Shown one piece after another: positions 222 through 11,667 of a stretch of 18,718 bases of DNA. This DNA comes from a virus. The position numbers were made by a program, and so were the translations under genes. The DNA is taken from UHGV virus genome UHGV-0133874; one strand, given 5' to 3'. The notes below the pieces were generated by a model, which worked only from the letters and a program-made list of their open reading frames with translations, did no database searches and was not told the DNA's origin. The number at the start of each line of letters is the position of its first letter. Positions within the stretch are counted from its first letter, which is position 1.

Positions 222-1274
222 TTACGGGGTAATGCCAACCGCTGCCGCCACTTTGTCGCCACTTGGCAGCGTTGCCAGAGGATTGAAACGGAGCGCCGTT
301 TCCAGATGATCCGGTGCCAGATGTGCGTAACGCATAGTCATTTTTATATCGTGGTGTCCGAGAATTTTTTGTAAGGCCAGAATGTTTCCACCCGACATCA
401 TGAAGTGCGCCGCAAACGTATGGCGCAGAACGTGTGTGAGTTGACCGCGAGGGAGCACGATAGACGTTTTTTCCATCACGGATAAAAATTGAAAATAGCA
501 GTCTGTGAAGAAATTGAACCCATCAAGCGCCATGATCTCTTCGTAAAGCTCTTTACTGATAGGGATGCTTCTGTTTTTCTTCCCCTTCGTTCTTACAAAG
601 GTAATTCGGTATTTGGTCACCTGTGAACGAGTAAGATTTACGGCTTCTCGCCAGCGTGCGCCTGTGCTTAAGCATATCTTAACTACCAGTGCCAGAATTG
701 GGTCCTGACGTTTGCAATCAGCCAGTAATTCAACAATCTGCTCATGGGTAAGCCATGCCATCTCTTTTTCTGCGATGGTGAATTTTCGCATGTTCTCCAG
801 TGGGTTCGGATACGACCATTCGCCCAGGCGGGATAGTTCGCTAAAAACACTACTTAGATAGCTTTGCTCCAGGTTAATGGTGACCGGGCTTGCTCCTTTC
901 TTCCATTTCTCGCTGAAGTAGATCTCACCTGTCAGGCGTTTATCTCGATAGTGGGCAAACATTTTAGAGGTTAGATCAGTTGCAAGGGGATTGCCCAGAG
1001 CGTCAACCATCAGCAGCAATTTGTCATAGACATGCTGCCCAGCAGTCAGTGATTTACCATGTAGTTTGAACCATAGCTCAACCACGTCTTTCAGTGTTCG
1101 ACGATCCACTGATTCACCTAGCCAGGGCTTTGCTTCGGTTTCTTCCATCGTGTGACGCTCAAAAGCCAGTGCTTCGCCTTTGGTGGCGAATTGTTTACGC
1201 ACACGACGCCCACTACGTCCGGCGGGGTAACATTCGCAAAGCCATTTTCCTGTGGTGAGTTTTCGTACAGCCAT
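222..1274 (-). CDS. int: Tyrosine-type site-specific integrase (P2/186 Int family)
   Basis: 351-aa product from ATG at 1272-1274 (MAVRKLTTGKWLCECYP...); C-terminal HxxR...Y catalytic region (HVLRHTFAAHF...MRYAHL). The longer ORF-track start at 1352 is probably an upstream extension. Confidence 0.9.
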   Translation of the reverse strand: MAVRKLTTGKWLCECYPAGRSGRRVRKQFATKGEALAFERHTMEETEAKPWLGESVDRRTLKDVVELWFKLHGKSLTAGQHVYDKLLLMVDALGNPLATDLTSKMFAHYRDKRLTGEIYFSEKWKKGASPVTINLEQSYLSSVFSELSRLGEWSYPNPLENMRKFTIAEKEMAWLTHEQIVELLADCKRQDPILALVVKICLSTGARWREAVNLTRSQVTKYRITFVRTKGKKNRSIPISKELYEEIMALDGFNFFTDCYFQFLSVMEKTSIVLPRGQLTHVLRHTFAAHFMMSGGNILALQKILGHHDIKMTMRYAHLAPDHLETALRFNPLATLPSGDKVAAAVGITP

Positions 1275-1462
1275 AAAAAATGCCCTCCAATAGAGAGCAT
1301 TTTTACTGTATGTATAACCAGTGTCAATGTATGAAATCCTGCGACCATACATCTCACTGAAGCCATAATGAAGTAGGCTATTCTTTTTGCTATGTGATCA
1401 TGTAACTTTTGCGGTTAACCTGTGGCTCATTTTTATTTTAGGCGCAGATATAAAAGCAAAAG

Positions 1463-1654
1463 TTATCGTGAGTTTTTAGTACAGATTTTTTTGGATTTAC
1501 TAATAGTTCCATCATTGCAAACGAATTTGCCATCAGAGGTACAGTGAGAAACACCTCCCTTTTTCCCTGAGCAGGGATAATTTCTAGCATAGGTAGCTAG
1601 TGGGTTTAATAACAAAGAACATGACAAAACCACAAAAAATACCTTACCAAGCAT
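1463..1654 (-). CDS. Small (63 aa) predicted secreted peptide with N-terminal signal peptide and 4 Cys in the mature part; unknown function
   Basis: Hydrophobic N-terminus [23 protein letters not shown] with A-x-A-like cleavage site; GGAG 7 nt upstream of the ATG; AT-rich relative to neighbours; sits between cI and int on the same strand. Confidence 0.5.
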
Positions 1655-1669
1655 AATTTTCTCCCGGTA

Positions 1670-2239
1670 CTATTTAACATACTTGACTGTTAAACTTATA
1701 ATTTTACCAATTATTTCAATGTCTTCTATCTTACATTCAAAGGCTCTGTTTCCACCCTCGACGAAGATTCTTCCACCGGGTAAACGAGTAATGTCACGGA
1801 TCGTTATTTCGCCATCAATACTTATTACCCATTTACCATCACGTATATCATCAAATTCCTTATCACAAATAAATTCAGAATTATTATCTGTGATTACAAA
1901 AAGATTCTTGAATGCCGACGGTAGAAATTCTCTATCGAAAATATAAAAACCGTCTTCACACAAGGCCCCATCAGATAATACATATTTAGCAACTTCCATA
2001 GTATTTGTATTACCTGAAGTTTGCTTTGAACCATGCCCGGTTGTGAGCCAATTAAGCGAGGTGCCTGTTTCAAGGGCGCACTGGATTACCCATTCTGCTG
2101 GGAATGAGTCACGCATGTAGCGTGTGGCGAGTGTACTTTTAGAGATTCCTAAATGATCGCACAACGCCTGTCGAGTCTTGAATCCATAAGCTTCTACCAT
2201 GCGCTCTATGGCGCCTCGTCCGCCTTTCTCCAAATTCAT
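1670..2239 (-). CDS. cI: 186-type CI immunity repressor (N-terminal HTH, C-terminal oligomerisation domain)
   Basis: 189-aa product from ATG at 2237-2239 with GGAG 5 nt upstream; size and position (divergent from apl/cII, upstream of int) match the 186 CI repressor. Confidence 0.85.
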   Translation of the reverse strand: MNLEKGGRGAIERMVEAYGFKTRQALCDHLGISKSTLATRYMRDSFPAEWVIQCALETGTSLNWLTTGHGSKQTSGNTNTMEVAKYVLSDGALCEDGFYIFDREFLPSAFKNLFVITDNNSEFICDKEFDDIRDGKWVISIDGEITIRDITRLPGGRIFVEGGNRAFECKIEDIEIIGKIISLTVKYVK

Positions 2240-2263
2240 GGTCACTCCAAGTGAACTTTTATC

Positions 2264-3336: not shown

Positions 3337-3641
3337 GCCCCGGTGAACGCCTGAATGGACTTAATCACATTGCGGAGTTAAGGGCGAAAGTTTTTGGCCT
3401 GAATATTGAGTCAGAGCTTGAGCGGTTTATTAAAGATATGCGTGATTCACGGGATATTAATAGCGAACAAAATAAACGGGCACTGGCTGCCATATTCTTT
3501 ATGGCAAAAATTCCAGCTGAACGTCATAGCATCAGCATTAATGAGCTGACCACTGACGAAAAGCGGGAGTTGATTAAAGCAATGAATCATTTTCGTGCAG
3601 TGGTGAGCTTATTTCCCAGACGGCTAACCATGCCGAATTAA
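3300..3641 (+). CDS. Early-region hypothetical protein
   Basis: 113-aa ORF, GGGGA upstream of ATG at 3300; overlaps the preceding ORF by 37 nt, so the true start may be further downstream. Confidence 0.5.
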   Translation: MAIEGTAATVPLSPGERLNGLNHIAELRAKVFGLNIESELERFIKDMRDSRDINSEQNKRALAAIFFMAKIPAERHSISINELTTDEKRELIKAMNHFRAVVSLFPRRLTMPN

Positions 3642-3708
3642 CCAACTAATGAAATTAATGGCGTAAACCCGCCGGGCATCCCTTTATCTAAATTCAGGAG
3701 AATTGATT

Positions 3709-3942
3709 ATGCGTAATATTGAAACCCTCTCGACCAAAACCGGACCGGATGACGCAGGGCTTAATATTTTACTGACAGAGGCTCGTCTGGAAGAACGCCG
3801 GGCAAGGGCTGAAGCAATGGCAGCTCGCCTTGATAGCCTGGCGTGTCATATCACATCCCGCCAGCTAACCCACGTCGAAGCGGCAGAACTGCTTCGTGTG
3901 ACTGCTGAAGCAATCCAGAACGAAGCGCAGGAGATCCACTAA
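3709..3942 (+). CDS. Early-region hypothetical protein (77 aa)
   Basis: ATG at 3709 with AGGAG 8 nt upstream; stop overlaps the next start (TAATG). Confidence 0.55.
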   Translation: MRNIETLSTKTGPDDAGLNILLTEARLEERRARAEAMAARLDSLACHITSRQLTHVEAAELLRVTAEAIQNEAQEIH

Positions 3943-8525: not shown

Positions 8526-9644
8526 ATGTATCTTTTCAAGTATTACCGTCCGGACTTCTTCTTCGAGAAAGCTATTCGTTATAATGAATTATATTTTTCC
8601 GCTCCTGCGCAATTGAATGATCCTAATGATCTCAATATAGATTATCGTTTTGATAATAAATTGAAATTATGGGATATTTTATTGCGTTCTCCTTGCGATA
8701 AATCCTATGAAAATTTGAGTCACATATTAGATTTGAGTAATTTGAAGATACATAAGGGATTGAATCGTATTTTTAGAGGAAAAAAAATAAAAAGTAGCAT
8801 TGAGTCATTAGATAGCCTGTTTGACTCACACGTTGATGAGATACGTAAGATCATAAATGATGGTTTACTACCTATCAATGTGATTAATTCCGCTATTTAT
8901 GGGAATATTCCTGAACCACGCCAATTTTTGGTCTCACTTTGCGAGAACAGTATCAAAGAAAGGTTGTATAGGAAAATAGTTCCTGCAGTATTCAGTGTGT
9001 CATTTTCAGCTAATGCGTTAGATCGTATGATGTGGGCGCATTATGCTGCAGGCTTTAGTGGTTGTGTTGTGATTTATGAAACGCAGGATTTTAATATTAA
9101 TGGCGTGCCACATCCTGGAATGAAGCTAAGAGAAAATTTATTTTCATCAGATAAATTTAATTTTCCAGTTAAGCAAATAAAATATAGTAATCAGGCTAAA
9201 GAGGTTTCACTTCTAGACCCAAGCGCAAATGTTGCAGAGTTATTTTTAACTAAAAATAGATTTTGGAGATATGAAGCTGAATATCGAATGTTTATTCCAG
9301 AGGCAAATGCAGGAATAGGGAGTGAGCGGCATGTTCAAAGACGCGTAAATCGAAATATTGGACATATTTTTCATCATGATGCTAATGTTGTTAAAGGGAT
9401 CATTTTTGGTCCTAGAATGTGTGAAATGAAAAAAGAAAGCATATGGAATTGTATCAAGTCAAATATGGAGAATTCAAATTCAACAATATGTTATTTTTTT
9501 GACTCTGAGTTATCAGCATCAGGAAAGATTACTATTTCAAAAGGGCAACGAGCGGAAAAAATGAAAAATTTCCCTTTGTTCAGGAACAAGTTAAGTCAGA
9601 CGGAAATGGCTAAAGTTTTGAAGGAAATTGGCATTACGAACTAA
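8526..9644 (+). CDS. DUF2971-like protein (372 aa), function unknown; candidate accessory/defence gene
   Basis: N-terminal pattern FKYYRPDFF...NELYFSAPAQLNDPND and central MWAHYAAGFSGCVVIYE resemble what I recall of the DUF2971 signature; gene is markedly AT-rich versus the phage backbone and sits alone between tum and cos. Confidence 0.6.
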   Translation: MYLFKYYRPDFFFEKAIRYNELYFSAPAQLNDPNDLNIDYRFDNKLKLWDILLRSPCDKSYENLSHILDLSNLKIHKGLNRIFRGKKIKSSIESLDSLFDSHVDEIRKIINDGLLPINVINSAIYGNIPEPRQFLVSLCENSIKERLYRKIVPAVFSVSFSANALDRMMWAHYAAGFSGCVVIYETQDFNINGVPHPGMKLRENLFSSDKFNFPVKQIKYSNQAKEVSLLDPSANVAELFLTKNRFWRYEAEYRMFIPEANAGIGSERHVQRRVNRNIGHIFHHDANVVKGIIFGPRMCEMKKESIWNCIKSNMENSNSTICYFFDSELSASGKITISKGQRAEKMKNFPLFRNKLSQTEMAKVLKEIGITN

Positions 9645-9798: not shown

Positions 9799-9900
9799 CG
9801 CGCGCTAACTCATAAATCCTAGATTATTAGTGGATTTATCTCATTGAAATGTGCACTATTCCCAGCATTGAGTTGTACCAGATGTCTTTATGGAGGGACT

Positions 9901-11667
9901 GTGGCTTTTGTAACTGATATTCGGCTTGAAGATAATGCTATTGCTGCACCTGCGACAGCACAGGTTATGGCTCAGAGGCTAGGATCTGTATTACGTAAGA
10001 GATATGAAGAATTCATCCATAAAAGAGAGTGTGCACCAGGCCAAGCAGACTATGATGTAAAAATGGCTAGCAGGGCTTTAGCTGCATTCACTATGTATCA
10101 GTTAGGATGTGTGGATGATAAGTATGCAGGGGAGTCTGTATGTGATAGTAGTGAAGATGGTGGTATAGATGGAATAGCAATCAACCATAACGAAAAAATC
10201 GTTGTTGTTGTTCAATCAAAATTTCACCAATCGGGAAACGGCACTTGGACAAGAGCCGATTTTATGTGTTTTAAGGATGCTTGTGAGAAGCTACAAAGTG
10301 AAAGATACGAATTATTTGATTCCATATTGCAAAATAAAAGCGGGGAAATAAGTGCGGCTTTAAGTAGTTTTGAATACAAGTTCATCTTTGCGATGGCGCA
10401 TACAGGTAAAAAAGGTGCTGCAGAGGAAATATTAAATGATATGCGGGAATGGCAATATCAATTAAACGCTGCAGCTTTTACACCTGAGGATGAGCCTAAA
10501 GAGAACTGGGGATTTCAGGTTCATTTAATATCCTCTGAAGATATGATGCATTGGTTACAGAATGGCTCTCGAAATCAAATTGATCTTAACAGGGTTGAAA
10601 TTGAGCGTTTTGGATTTTTGAATGAACCATATCAAGCTTTTTACGGGGCTATTAGTGGTGATCAAGTTGCAGAATGGTGGGAAGAGCATGGTGCTCGATT
10701 ATTTACAAAAAACATAAGGAATATGCTTGGTAAAACAGAAGTGAATGAGGAAATAAAAAAGACAGCTATAGATAATCCTGATATGTTTTGGTTTTATAAT
10801 AATGGGATTACTGTACTGGTTAAGGAAGTTGTTCCTCATAGACGAAACGCAGCTCCTAATATAGAGAGAGGGATTTTTGATTTTCGTGATGTAAGTGTCA
10901 TTAATGGTGCACAAACAGTCAGTAGTATTGGCGCATGTAAAGATGCACTTGGTGAAAACATATATAGACTCAAAGTGCCAGCTAGATTCATTGTTATAGA
11001 TGATGATACTGATAATTTAACTGCAAATGCAATTACAAAAGCTAACAATTTCCAAAATAGAGTATTGGGAAGAGATTTTGCATCGCAGCAGGCAGATCAA
11101 CATAGATTGGCAAGGGAGTTAGTGCTTGAAGGATATCAATATCAGTTACTAAGAACAGATGAAGATCATTCACAGACAAATACGAAAGTCATTGACTTGG
11201 ATGAGGCGCTCAATGCACTCGCATGTTTAAGTAAAAATAATACGGTTGTATCGACACTAAAATCAAATCGCGGTAGGTTTTTTGAAAATTTTGAAGGCTC
11301 TCTATATAAAACTATTTTCAATCCAAGATTAAGTGGTTTAAAACTTATCAATACTGTTCTACATTTTAGAGTTATAGATAAGTTGATCGGTAAAACATTA
11401 CTATCAGTAGATAAAACGACCCATAGTCGCAAGCATTTAATTATTACGCATGGTAATAGATACTATGCGTCTGTACTATTGAGCAACGTTTCTGGGATAC
11501 ATAATAGCTCAGAAATTCTTGTTCCAGATGAAAAAAATCTTTCCGAAGAATTAAGTGCATTAATTCAACGTGCTGAAGAGTACATTGAAGATAATTACCC
11601 GAATGCCTATCCGGCAAGATTTTTTGCAAATCCAACGAAAATACAAGAGTTATACGATAATGTTTAA
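9901..11667 (+). CDS. Protein with N-terminal Mrr-like PD-(D/E)xK nuclease motif and AIPR-like C-terminal region (abortive-infection-type); candidate anti-phage effector
   Basis: Open frame 9844-11667 (607 aa from TTG 9844; 588 aa from GTG 9901 with GGAGGG 3 nt upstream; ATG at 9967 also in frame). DGGIDGIAI...KIVVVVQSKF resembles the Mrr catalytic D...(Q/E)xK motif; WFYNNGITVL and INGAQT resemble AIPR-family motifs as I recall them; AT-rich. Confidence 0.75.
   Translation: MAFVTDIRLEDNAIAAPATAQVMAQRLGSVLRKRYEEFIHKRECAPGQADYDVKMASRALAAFTMYQLGCVDDKYAGESVCDSSEDGGIDGIAINHNEKIVVVVQSKFHQSGNGTWTRADFMCFKDACEKLQSERYELFDSILQNKSGEISAALSSFEYKFIFAMAHTGKKGAAEEILNDMREWQYQLNAAAFTPEDEPKENWGFQVHLISSEDMMHWLQNGSRNQIDLNRVEIERFGFLNEPYQAFYGAISGDQVAEWWEEHGARLFTKNIRNMLGKTEVNEEIKKTAIDNPDMFWFYNNGITVLVKEVVPHRRNAAPNIERGIFDFRDVSVINGAQTVSSIGACKDALGENIYRLKVPARFIVIDDDTDNLTANAITKANNFQNRVLGRDFASQQADQHRLARELVLEGYQYQLLRTDEDHSQTNTKVIDLDEALNALACLSKNNTVVSTLKSNRGRFFENFEGSLYKTIFNPRLSGLKLINTVLHFRVIDKLIGKTLLSVDKTTHSRKHLIITHGNRYYASVLLSNVSGIHNSSEILVPDEKNLSEELSALIQRAEEYIEDNYPNAYPARFFANPTKIQELYDNV

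What the first reader, a model, noticed from the sequence alone, without database searches (positions are those of the whole stretch)
1463..1654. Small secreted cysteine-containing peptide gene embedded in the lysogenic cI-int transcription unit
Between cI and int, on the same strand, is a 63-aa ORF with a good ribosome-binding site, a canonical signal peptide and a ~40-aa mature region with four cysteines. Its local sequence is AT-rich compared with int and cI. In 186-type phages cI and int are co-transcribed in the lysogen, so this gene would be expressed from the resident prophage: a lysogenic-conversion (moron) candidate such as an envelope-acting exclusion factor or small toxin/bacteriocin-like peptide.
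Basis: partly seen in the sequence, partly recalled or inferred. Interest (0 to 1): 0.45.

Follow-up and report, generated by a model that had tools for sequence, protein, structure and literature searches.

The report
Prophage copy of periplasmic mini-protein YdcA
The small gene between the repressor and integrase genes of this E. coli prophage is real and encodes an exported, cysteine-stapled 40-residue protein of the already named but uncharacterised YdcA family; phages have repeatedly placed such a gene right behind their repressor gene, and its function has never been tested.

Summary
Window 1463..1654 (-) is a 63-aa ORF 15 nt after the cI stop, with a GGGAG ribosome-binding site, a signal-peptide-like N-terminus and four cysteines in a 40-aa cationic mature part. 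It is not new as a sequence: RefSeq calls it WP_001513672.1, 'YdcA family protein' (NF007463 above cut-off, PF27300, PHROG 6000), and the cassette is in 704 of 5426 complete E. coli genomes.

Phage 186 has no gene at this position. Diverged copies in Escherichia, Klebsiella, Yersinia, Hafnia, Enterobacter and Haemophilus phage HP2 (unannotated there) all sit directly behind cI. The mature core is under extreme purifying selection: pN is 0.02-0.08 while synonymous sites are saturated, against pN 0.18-0.47 for cI in the same pairs.

Most family members are chromosomal, so this looks like a captured host-type gene. The domain resembles both lobes of Legionella Dis2, an outer-membrane-proximal Dot/Icm T4SS component. 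It also lies next to tssJ in enterobacterial T6SS clusters and is fused to three unrelated secreted nuclease folds.

My best reading is a periplasmic docking module made in the lysogen that changes the envelope, most likely excluding incoming DNA or devices. The function is inferred, not shown.

The parts
1463..1654 (-). YdcA-family gene (63 codons plus stop), identical to RefSeq WP_001513672.1
   Evidence: ORF list. RefSeq annotation 'YdcA family protein'. NF007463 scores 114.6 bits against a cut-off of 93. phrog_6000 E 3e-34. PF27300 precomputed. Purifying selection.
1586..1654 (-). Codons 1-23: predicted Sec signal peptide ([23 protein letters not shown]), with predicted cleavage after A23
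   Evidence: Hydrophobicity profile. In the family alignment this part diverges freely but stays hydrophobic and ends in AxA. pN is 0.5-0.67 here against 0.02-0.08 in the core. The cleavage site is inferred; no SignalP was run.
1466..1585 (-). Codons 24-63: mature 40-aa peptide with 4 Cys, 9 K/R against 2 D/E and a calculated pI of 9.7
   Evidence: Composition. Invariant columns P27 C28 S29 K32 G33 G34 C38 F44 C46 G49 S52 S54 K55 C58. AlphaFold2 pLDDT of at least 90 for residues 31-50, with a beta-hairpin at 35-38/44-46.
1661..1665 (-). Shine-Dalgarno GGGAG, 6 nt upstream of the ATG and inside the 15-nt cI-ORF gap
   Evidence: Read directly from the sequence. Comparable GGAG/AGGA motifs precede the homologues in L009, L012 and HP2.
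1670..2245 (-). 186-type cI repressor gene, immediately upstream in the same transcript direction
   Evidence: PF07022 E 2.8e-33 and PF16452 E 2.7e-27. RefSeq 'phage repressor protein CI'.
1275..1462 (-). 188-nt untranslated, strongly structured spacer between the ORF and int
   Evidence: RNA fold of -58.7 kcal/mol, z = -4.29, with 0 of 200 shuffles as stable. Homology to the int module of the Klebsiella phages ends near 1334, marking a mosaic boundary inside the spacer.
1276..1304 (-). 13-bp hairpin followed by U's directly before the int ATG. It is terminator-like and its 3' arm contains the int GGAGG.
   Evidence: Fold of -17.5 kcal/mol, z = -5.5. The consensus terminator scan did not call it, because the U-run is paired with an A-run.
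222..1274 (-). Tyrosine integrase gene (RefSeq start at 1274; the mechanical ORF extends to 1352)
   Evidence: PF24624 and PF00589. RefSeq CDS of 1053 nt.

Best explanation
The ORF is a functional, prophage-borne copy of a host-type gene family (YdcA, PF27300).

Expression (inferred from anatomy): it is transcribed with cI from the lysogenic promoters and translated from its own GGGAG site 15 nt after the cI stop, so it would be made in the lysogen.

Maturation (inferred): the product is exported by Sec and cleaved after A23. It folds in the periplasm into a roughly 4.3-kDa, strongly cationic mini-domain held by two disulfides.

Mechanism (inferred from homology, gene neighbourhood and fusions; not demonstrated): the domain is a small docking module that sits just under the outer membrane and binds outer-membrane lipoproteins or trans-envelope machines. 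The two homologous lobes of Legionella Dis2 do this in the solved Dot/Icm T4SS outer-membrane cap.

Proposed role: a free copy made by the prophage changes the lysogen's envelope. The role I commit to is exclusion, that is, interference with the envelope-crossing step of incoming phage, DNA or contractile devices.

Confidence by layer:
- Real exported YdcA-family protein: about 0.95.
- Expressed with cI in lysogens: about 0.7.
- Outer-membrane-proximal docking module: about 0.5.
- Exclusion as the selected function: about 0.3.
For: Identity:
- NF007463 scores above its cut-off, the gene matches phrog_6000 and RefSeq names it.
- The family holds 449 clusters at 50% identity with E <= 1e-3.

Real gene under constraint:
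- Core pN is 0.02-0.08 with saturated pS, whereas the adjacent cI has pN 0.18-0.47 in the same pairs. Window versus the Yersinia locus L014: cI is 31% identical, while the YdcA core has pN 0.06.

Export:
- The family has a divergent hydrophobic N-terminus followed by AxA in 172 of 178 proteins.
- K-12 YdcA is described as signal-peptide-bearing and predicted periplasmic (PMC11340327).

Linkage to the repressor:
- Diverged copies sit directly after a 186-type cI in Escherichia, Klebsiella, Yersinia, Hafnia and Enterobacter.
- In Haemophilus phage HP2 the ATG overlaps the cI stop.
- Seven betaproteobacterial loci have the gene downstream of an HTH/S24 repressor.
- The gene is absent at this position in 186 and ESSI2_ev129.
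- No promoter-like site lies between the cI start and the ORF on the minus strand.

Docking module:
- The family profile hits PDB 7muc_AN (Dis2/Lpg0823) at E 8e-6, matching both lobes.
- Foldseek's top hit is the same chain, with probability 0.97 and 38% identity.
- hhalign against a Dis2-like protein gives 88% probability, E 2.8e-6.
- The mature peptide alone aligns to both lobes, and the Dis2-like P0227 carries a precomputed PF27300 hit.
- Dis2 lies next to the outer membrane, is pinned by disulfides, and contacts DotK, DotC and DotD (PMC8486379, PMC12716638).
- In about 17 Enterobacterales species a YdcA-domain protein is encoded inside T6SS clusters, just after the outer-membrane lipoprotein gene tssJ and before vasL, and one family member is fused to VasL.
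- Five members are fused to secreted nucleases of three unrelated folds.
Against: - No experiment or expression data bear on the prophage copy.
- PADLOC has no hit, and there is no sequence link to any known exclusion protein.
- In a one-genome-per-species sample, 71 of 80 loci have no 186-type cI, int or cII within 3.5 kb. The family is therefore mainly a housekeeping-type chromosomal gene, which favours a general envelope role over an anti-phage one.
- E. coli already has a core paralogue.
- Deleting dis2 barely affects the T4SS (PMC12716638).
- Dis2 lacks the basic residues that characterise YdcA.
- The model has a mean pLDDT of 78.7, and I could not read its disulfide pairing.
Confidence: 0.4

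Rival explanations
1. Envelope-fitness factor. The prophage supplies an extra or variant dose of the normal host YdcA activity, for example tolerance of acid, organic-acid or other envelope stress. This would benefit the lysogen without any role against incoming DNA.
For: Most family members are chromosomal and not in prophages, and E. coli has a core paralogue. Deleting chromosomal ydcA made E. coli W sensitive to 300 mM 3-hydroxypropionate, and ydcA is reported to be induced at pH 5 through YdcI (PMC7642389).
Against: The phenotype comes from a single study and was suppressed by a yieP deletion. This reading does not explain why phages of at least three bacterial orders keep the gene immediately behind their repressor, nor the T4SS, T6SS and nuclease associations.
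Confidence: 0.25
2. Periplasmic nucleic-acid binder. The cationic mini-domain binds DNA directly and sequesters free DNA in the periplasm. The result would be inhibition of transformation or DNA uptake, or protection from it.
For: - The only enzyme domains fused to it are nucleases: Endonuclease_NS three times, SNase once and PLDc_2 once.
- The C..C core has a mean net charge of +3.4, and the window's mature peptide has a net charge of +7.
- In HP2 the next gene encodes a secreted protein with an OB-fold 'tRNA_anti-like' domain.
- Phage-borne copies occur in the naturally transformable genera Haemophilus, Moraxella and Acinetobacter.
- Lysogeny was reported to inhibit transformation in H. influenzae (Piekarowicz 1977, as cited in PMC12378983). 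I could not read that paper, and which phage or gene is responsible is unknown.
Against: This reading does not explain the placement in T6SS clusters, which secrete protein, or the Dis2 position, where the lobes contact lipoproteins rather than DNA (PMC12716638). Enterobacterial hosts are not normally transformable. Phage DNA is thought to cross the periplasm inside a conduit (general knowledge).
Confidence: 0.15
3. Secreted toxin or bacteriocin-like peptide, or an outer-membrane lipoprotein.
For: The product is small, cationic, cysteine-rich and exported. Some records name family members 'Lipoprotein' or 'Conjugal transfer protein'.
Against: - The leader is Sec-type, not double-glycine.
- No immunity, processing or export genes lie next to it here or in the relatives.
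- It is a core chromosomal gene in E. coli.
- C12 of the signal peptide is not conserved and lies too close to the N-terminus for a lipobox.
- The two E. coli 'plasmid' records hold chromosomal DNA.
Confidence: 0.03

Closest known systems
E. coli K-12 YdcA (b1419; 57 aa; NCBIfam NF007462 / Pfam PF27300)
   Same: Same architecture: a signal peptide followed by one 4-Cys domain, PCSGxKGG[VI]SHC...GKFVCNDG[ST]xSxSKKxC. tblastn gives 79% identity over residues 27-59. The function of both is unknown.
   Different: The chromosomal gene is a core gene next to cybB and rydC (PMC11340327), whereas this copy is prophage cargo behind cI. It scores below the NF007462 cut-off (68.5 against 118) and above that of the separate model NF007463. 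Its signal peptide is unrelated in sequence.
Legionella pneumophila Dis2 (Lpg0823), a component of the Dot/Icm T4SS outer-membrane cap (PDB 7MUC/7MUD)
   Same: Each Dis2 lobe aligns with the YdcA core (GG[VI]xxC...G..VCN[DN]G..S). It is the top Foldseek hit. It is exported, disulfide-stapled and lies close to the outer membrane (PMC8486379).
   Different: Dis2 has two lobes with five disulfides, is not strongly basic, and is a stoichiometric part of a T4SS. The window protein has one lobe, four cysteines and no secretion-system genes nearby. The Dis2 papers I read describe it as Legionella-specific with no structural relative (PMC8486379, PMC12716638), although a precomputed PF27300 hit on a Dis2-like protein suggests Pfam already joins them.
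T6SS-cluster YdcA-domain proteins of Enterobacterales (about 132 aa; NCBIfam NF007464 type)
   Same: Same N-terminal signal peptide and YdcA domain. The window protein matches NF007464 at E 5.6e-12.
   Different: These carry a basic linker and a conserved C-terminal motif (QPRQPTCAPLYMA.KPGYTHLPICSGNQY). They lie between tssJ and vasL or T5orf172 genes, not in a prophage.
Periplasmic or envelope superinfection-exclusion proteins of temperate phages (for example P1 Sim, T4 Spackle, T5 Llp; from my own knowledge)
   Same: Small exported proteins that are made by the resident phage and act in the envelope. This is the functional analogy I propose.
   Different: There is no sequence or fold similarity to any of them: PADLOC, Pfam and BFVD gave nothing. 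No phenotype is known.
Phage morons / lysogenic-conversion cargo
   Same: Absent from the closest reference phages at this position, lower in GC than the surrounding phage genes, and placed where it would be expressed from the prophage. The cI-int interval holds other cargo in relatives: a KAP NTPase, or proteins of 347 and 349 aa.
   Different: A classical moron brings its own promoter and terminator. This gene appears to depend on the cI transcript, and it is consistently the first gene after cI.

Membership tests
YdcA family (Pfam PF27300; NCBIfam NF007463) | Profile score above the curated cut-off | tested here: met
   NF007463 scores 114.6 bits against a cut-off of 93, covering residues 5-63 and the whole 58-position model. 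PF27300 is precomputed for the identical cluster. My Pfam copy lacks PF27300, so that model itself was not run.
YdcA family (Pfam PF27300; NCBIfam NF007463) | Four conserved cysteines in the motif PCSGxKGG[VI]xxC-x(3-5)-F[VI]CxDGxxSxSKxxC | tested here: met
   All motif positions are present, and C28, C38, C46 and C58 are invariant in the 36-sequence alignment.
YdcA family (Pfam PF27300; NCBIfam NF007463) | N-terminal cleavable signal peptide directly before the domain | tested here: met
   Hydrophobic core plus T-Y-A before R24. 172 of 178 family proteins have the same layout. This is a crude method; SignalP was not available.
Moron (self-contained lysogenic-conversion cassette) | Absent at the same position in close relatives | tested here: met
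   In 186, cI and int overlap by 1 nt. ESSI2_ev129 has a 77-nt gap. Klebsiella phage 4LV2017 has the same int but a different 349-aa gene there.
Moron (self-contained lysogenic-conversion cassette) | Own promoter and own terminator | tested here: not met
   No minus-strand promoter-like site lies between the cI start and the ORF, and no terminator call follows the ORF directly. The only terminator-like hairpin is 160 nt downstream, at the int start.
Moron (self-contained lysogenic-conversion cassette) | Expression from the repressed prophage | not testable with these tools
   Needs RNA-seq or Ribo-seq of a lysogen. The position behind cI makes expression likely.
Dis2 (Lpg0823) of the Dot/Icm T4SS | Homologous disulfide-stapled lobe | tested here: met
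   hmmsearch against PDB sequences E 8.1e-6. Foldseek probability 0.97. hhalign probability 88.4%. BLAST of the mature part aligns to both lobes.
Dis2 (Lpg0823) of the Dot/Icm T4SS | Two lobes with five disulfides, as part of a T4SS outer-membrane cap | tested here: not met
   The window protein has a single lobe and four cysteines. No secretion-system genes are in the window.
Known anti-phage defence / exclusion proteins | Sequence match to a described defence or exclusion family | tested here: not met
   PADLOC gave 0 families at E <= 1. PHROG 6000 is of 'unknown function'. BFVD fold search found nothing at E <= 0.001.
Bacteriocin / microcin | Dedicated leader plus adjacent immunity and export genes | tested here: not met
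   The leader is Sec-type. The neighbours are cI and int only, and the same holds in the relatives.
Bacterial lipoprotein | Conserved lipobox cysteine at the end of the signal peptide | tested here: not met
   C12 lies 12 residues from the N-terminus and is absent from most homologues.

The most novel reading that the evidence does not exclude
The YdcA/Dis2-like mini-domain is a general docking module under the outer membrane for trans-envelope machines (T4BSS, T6SS, port-associated nucleases). Temperate phages of Enterobacterales, Pasteurellaceae and Betaproteobacteria express a free copy from the repressor operon. This would be a previously unrecognised class of periplasmic exclusion factor against incoming phage DNA, contractile devices or transforming DNA.
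Probability: 0.2. Interest if true: 0.7.

Novelty: new member of a known kind. Interest (0 to 1): 0.45.

Why it matters
About 13% of complete E. coli genomes (704 of 5426) carry this cassette, and related prophages in several pathogens carry diverged versions. A protein made constitutively alongside the repressor would therefore be a common, unstudied lysogenic-conversion factor.

The mature peptide is far more conserved than the repressor next to it, which points to a conserved host target. The links found here give a first functional handle on both YdcA and Dis2: the Dis2 papers I read report no relative for it (PMC8486379, PMC12716638), and YdcA has no known function. Those links are Dis2 in a solved T4SS structure, a position next to tssJ in T6SS clusters, and fusions to three nuclease folds. 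The peptide is only 40 residues long, so it is easy to synthesise and test.

Tried and rejected
- Near-identity DNA search of the phage collection found no match, so the cassette is known from prophages and not from isolated coliphages.
- Pfam (my copy lacks PF27300) gave only a sub-threshold GULLO2 hit. PADLOC gave nothing.
- Conserved partner gene: the downstream genes in HP2, Mcat17, the Acinetobacter phage and two small plasmids are not one family. Only the Moraxellaceae ones share a weakly similar single-pass membrane protein. The window has no partner.
- Plasmid or conjugation origin, prompted by the UniRef name 'Conjugal transfer protein': the E. coli 'plasmid' hits are chromosomal DNA. 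Genuine plasmid copies are in Acinetobacter, Psychrobacter and Rhizobium.
- Lipoprotein and bacteriocin readings were rejected (see the membership tests).
- Literature: I found no paper linking ydcA to prophages or to DsbA. The 1977 Haemophilus paper was not held.
- Cluster look-up of the nuclease fusions gave no organism names.

Full report
**1. What is there.**
The window is a 186-type (Peduoviridae) prophage of E. coli integrated next to rcdA. On the minus strand the order is cI (1670..2245), a 63-codon ORF (1463..1654), a 188-nt spacer, then int (222..1274 by the RefSeq start).

Read directly from the sequence, the cI stop is followed by TACCGGGAGAAAATT and then the ATG. That gives a GGGAG Shine-Dalgarno 6 nt upstream of the start codon and only 15 nt between the two genes. 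The product is [23 protein letters not shown]|[40 protein letters not shown].

**2. It is a real gene.**
I codon-aligned the window copy with diverged copies from Escherichia (L009), Klebsiella (L012), Yersinia (L014) and Haemophilus phage HP2 (L002).

- In the 34-codon core, nonsynonymous differences are pN 0.02-0.08 among the enterobacterial copies, and 0.17-0.21 against HP2. Synonymous sites are saturated (pS 0.70-1.0).
- In the same genome pairs the neighbouring cI has pN 0.18-0.47. Window versus Yersinia cI is 31% identical.
- The signal-peptide codons drift almost freely, with pN 0.5-0.67.

In the family alignment the N-terminal region is unalignable in sequence. It is nonetheless always hydrophobic and ends in an AxA-type motif directly before N[YT]PCSG. 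The four cysteines and about ten other positions are invariant. This is the signature of a cleaved Sec signal peptide followed by a tightly constrained folded domain. C12 is not conserved, so there is no lipobox. I had no SignalP, so the cleavage site (after A23) is an inference.

**3. It is already a named family.**
- RefSeq annotates the identical protein (WP_001513672.1) as 'YdcA family protein'.
- It passes the NCBIfam equivalog NF007463 (114.6 bits against a cut-off of 93), matches phrog_6000, and its cluster carries PF27300.
- E. coli has a core chromosomal paralogue, YdcA, of 57 aa. It is described as a small predicted periplasmic protein of unknown function (PMC11340327). Its deletion made E. 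coli W sensitive to 3-hydroxypropionate (PMC7642389).
- The cassette (window 1250-1750) is present in 704 of 5426 complete E. coli genomes, 590 of them with at least 80% coverage. No isolated phage in the phage collection has it at near-identity.

**4. Insertion relative to 186, and a conserved place behind the repressor.**
In phage 186, cI and int overlap by one base, and the record annotates pL as driving the lysogenic operon with a predicted terminator beyond int and orf69. ESSI2_ev129 has a 77-nt cI-int gap. Klebsiella phage 4LV2017 has an integrase 97% identical in DNA to the window's, but a 349-aa gene between int and CI. The homology to that int module ends near window 1334.

Copies with proteins only 54-68% identical overall to the window's lie in the following arrangements:

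| Source | Gene order |
|---|---|
| Escherichia, Klebsiella | cI - YdcA - KAP NTPase - int |
| Yersinia, Enterobacter | cI - YdcA - int |
| Hafnia | cI - YdcA - 347-aa gene - int |
| Pectobacterium | cI - 141-aa gene - YdcA |
| Xenorhabdus | next to ogr, at a prophage end |

In Haemophilus phage HP2 (and S2) an unannotated 60-aa homologue starts at the last base of the cI stop codon. It is followed by a secreted OB-fold-like protein and then int. So the cI-int interval is a cargo site, and the YdcA gene is usually its first occupant, translationally close to cI.

On the minus strand no promoter-like site lies between the cI start and the ORF. Expression therefore probably depends on the cI transcript. 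This is inferred, not measured.

**5. The spacer.**
The 188 nt between the ORF and int fold far better than shuffles (z = -4.3). The last element is a 13-bp hairpin (-17.5 kcal/mol, z = -5.5) followed by U's. Its 3' arm contains the int GGAGG. A promoter-like TTGACA-17-AAAAAT (1327..1299) has its -10 element inside the 5' arm.

Read-through from cI and the YdcA gene into int may therefore be terminated or translationally masked. If so, the ORF could be the last efficiently expressed gene of the lysogenic transcript. This is a side observation and is untested.

**6. Where else the family occurs.**
- The profile finds 449 clusters (at 50% identity) at E <= 1e-3.
- In a one-genome-per-species scan, 157 stretches encode relatives. 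They come from Enterobacterales, Moraxellaceae, Neisseriaceae, Comamonadaceae, Brucella, Rhizobium and others.
- Of the best 80 loci, 7 lie next to a 186-type cI. Another 7 (Betaproteobacteria) lie downstream of an HTH or HTH+S24 repressor on the same strand.
- About 17 (Enterobacterales) lie inside T6SS clusters. There the gene follows tssG, a gp25-like gene and the lipoprotein gene tssJ, and precedes a vasL/impA-like or T5orf172 gene. The rest show no phage markers.
- The T6SS-linked proteins carry a basic linker and a conserved C-terminal motif.
- Phage-borne copies also occur among the structural genes of Moraxella and Acinetobacter phages. Others are on small mobilisable plasmids of Acinetobacter and Psychrobacter.

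The family is therefore mainly chromosomal, and mobile elements have captured it repeatedly.

**7. Clues to mechanism.**
*(a) Structure.* An AlphaFold2 model (mean pLDDT 78.7; at least 90 for residues 31-50) shows a short beta-hairpin. Foldseek against the PDB puts chain AN of 7MUC/7MUD first (probability 0.97, 38% identity over 39 columns, E 0.078).
- The family profile hits the same chain by sequence (E 8.1e-6), matching two stretches of it.
- hhalign against a metagenomic Dis2-like protein gives 88% probability.
- The mature peptide alone aligns with both lobes.
- A Dis2-like fragment carries a precomputed PF27300 hit.

That chain is Dis2 (Lpg0823). It has two similar lobes pinned by five disulfides, lies next to the outer membrane, and contacts DotK, DotC and DotD. 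Its authors found no structural relative and call it Legionella-specific (PMC8486379, PMC12716638).

*(b) Fusions.* Among the 60 longer proteins (100 aa or more) in the 150 best-scoring clusters, the only enzyme domains are nucleases of three unrelated folds: Endonuclease_NS three times, SNase once and PLDc_2 once. There are also PBCV basic adaptor (twice), VasL (once) and DUF4124 (once). Tandem two- and three-domain versions exist.

*(c) Charge.* The C..C core has a mean net charge of +3.4 across the family. The window's mature peptide has 9 K/R against 2 D/E and a calculated pI of 9.7.

**8. Interpretation.**
The reading that covers the most observations is a compact, disulfide-stapled periplasmic docking module that works just under the outer membrane. 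Dis2 shows this directly for a homologous lobe. The tssJ and vasL neighbourhood and the VasL fusion fit it, and the nuclease fusions can be read as localisation.

A free copy made with the repressor would alter the lysogen's envelope. I commit to exclusion of incoming phage, DNA or contractile devices as the selected role, at about 0.3.

Two rivals remain live:
- An envelope-fitness role shared with chromosomal YdcA, at about 0.25. It is favoured by the mostly chromosomal distribution and by the 3-HP phenotype.
- Direct DNA binding, at about 0.15. It is favoured by the nuclease fusions, the charge and the OB-fold neighbour in HP2.

The toxin, bacteriocin and lipoprotein readings are not supported.

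Shown here: the gene, its constraint, its family, its synteny, and the Dis2, T6SS and nuclease associations. Inferred: export, disulfides and co-expression with cI. Speculative: the target and the phenotype.

**9. Novelty and score.**
The protein and its family are already catalogued, so this is a new (prophage) member of a known but uncharacterised kind. I did not find the following in the papers I could search:
- the repressor-linked synteny from E. coli to Haemophilus;
- the unannotated HP2/S2 gene;
- the strength of selection on the mature core;
- the joint link to Dis2, T6SS clusters and secreted nucleases.

Interest is moderate at 0.45. This is a common, cheaply testable lysogenic-conversion candidate, but it has no demonstrated function.

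Noticed in passing
window 1276-1304 (-), with 1299-1327 (-): A 13-bp hairpin followed by U's lies directly before the int ATG, and its 3' arm holds the int GGAGG (-17.5 kcal/mol, z -5.5). A promoter-like TTGACA-17-AAAAAT has its -10 element inside the 5' arm, so transcripts starting there would lack the masking arm. This may uncouple int from the cI transcript.
   Followed up: partly
window 1674-1702 (+): A promoter-like site matching 11 of 12 positions (TTAACA-17-TATAAT) sits at the cI/ORF junction and points antisense into cI. The total number of such sites in the region is no higher than in shuffles.
   Followed up: no
window 8526-9644 (+) and 9844-11667 (+): Two cargo genes lie between the replication gene and the portal gene. 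One is a DUF2971 protein matching the PADLOC candidate PDC-S31 (E 3e-23). The other is an AIPR-domain protein matching AbiU (E 7e-25). These are probably defence genes in the usual P2-type hotspot.
   Followed up: partly
L002 2944-3126 (Haemophilus phage HP2, NC_003315 record positions 2486-2668, complement; also in S2): An unannotated 60-aa YdcA-family ORF has its ATG overlapping the cI stop codon. It is followed by orf1(S), a secreted protein with a tRNA_anti-like OB-fold domain.
   Followed up: yes
L132, L141, L143, L147, L149, L152, L155, L160, L165, L170, L177, L185, L186 and others, around 3486-3896: In many Enterobacterales a roughly 132-aa YdcA-domain protein is encoded inside T6SS clusters. 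It lies after tssG, a gp25-like gene and tssJ, and before vasL/impA-like or T5orf172 genes. It has a conserved C-terminal motif, QPRQPTCAPLYMA.KPGYTHLPICSGNQY.
   Followed up: partly
P0118, P0175, P0196, P0212 (metagenomic proteins): The YdcA domain is fused N-terminally to secreted nucleases of three unrelated folds: SNase, Endonuclease_NS and PLD-like.
   Followed up: partly
L009 and L012 4198-5529; L103 3247-4290; L113 1851-2900: The cI-int interval of related prophages holds further cargo: a 443-aa KAP P-loop NTPase in Escherichia and Klebsiella, and unrelated proteins of 347 and 349 aa in Hafnia and in Klebsiella phage 4LV2017.
   Followed up: partly
L007 966-1697, L008 1281-2240 (-), L017 4186-4884, L003 4123-4575: In Moraxellaceae (two small plasmids, the M. 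bovoculi chromosome and phage Mcat17) the YdcA gene is followed by a weakly related single-pass membrane protein. This may be a two-gene module that is absent from the window.
   Followed up: partly
L121, L122, L134, L140, L171, L175, L182: Betaproteobacterial YdcA genes lie downstream of HTH or HTH+S24 repressor-type genes on the same strand, often with other exported proteins in between. This is a second, independent link between a repressor and YdcA.
   Followed up: partly
L112 (NZ_CP148400.1) and L111 (NZ_CP134663.1): Two PLSDB 'plasmid' records are chromosomal DNA. One carries this prophage next to rcdA, ybjJ and ybjI. The other is a 4.9-Mb replicon.
   Followed up: yes
L005 1158-1409 (-) (phage 186 orf69): The last gene of the 186 lysogenic operon encodes a peptide made of LAPDGTYVGG-like repeats.
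   Followed up: no
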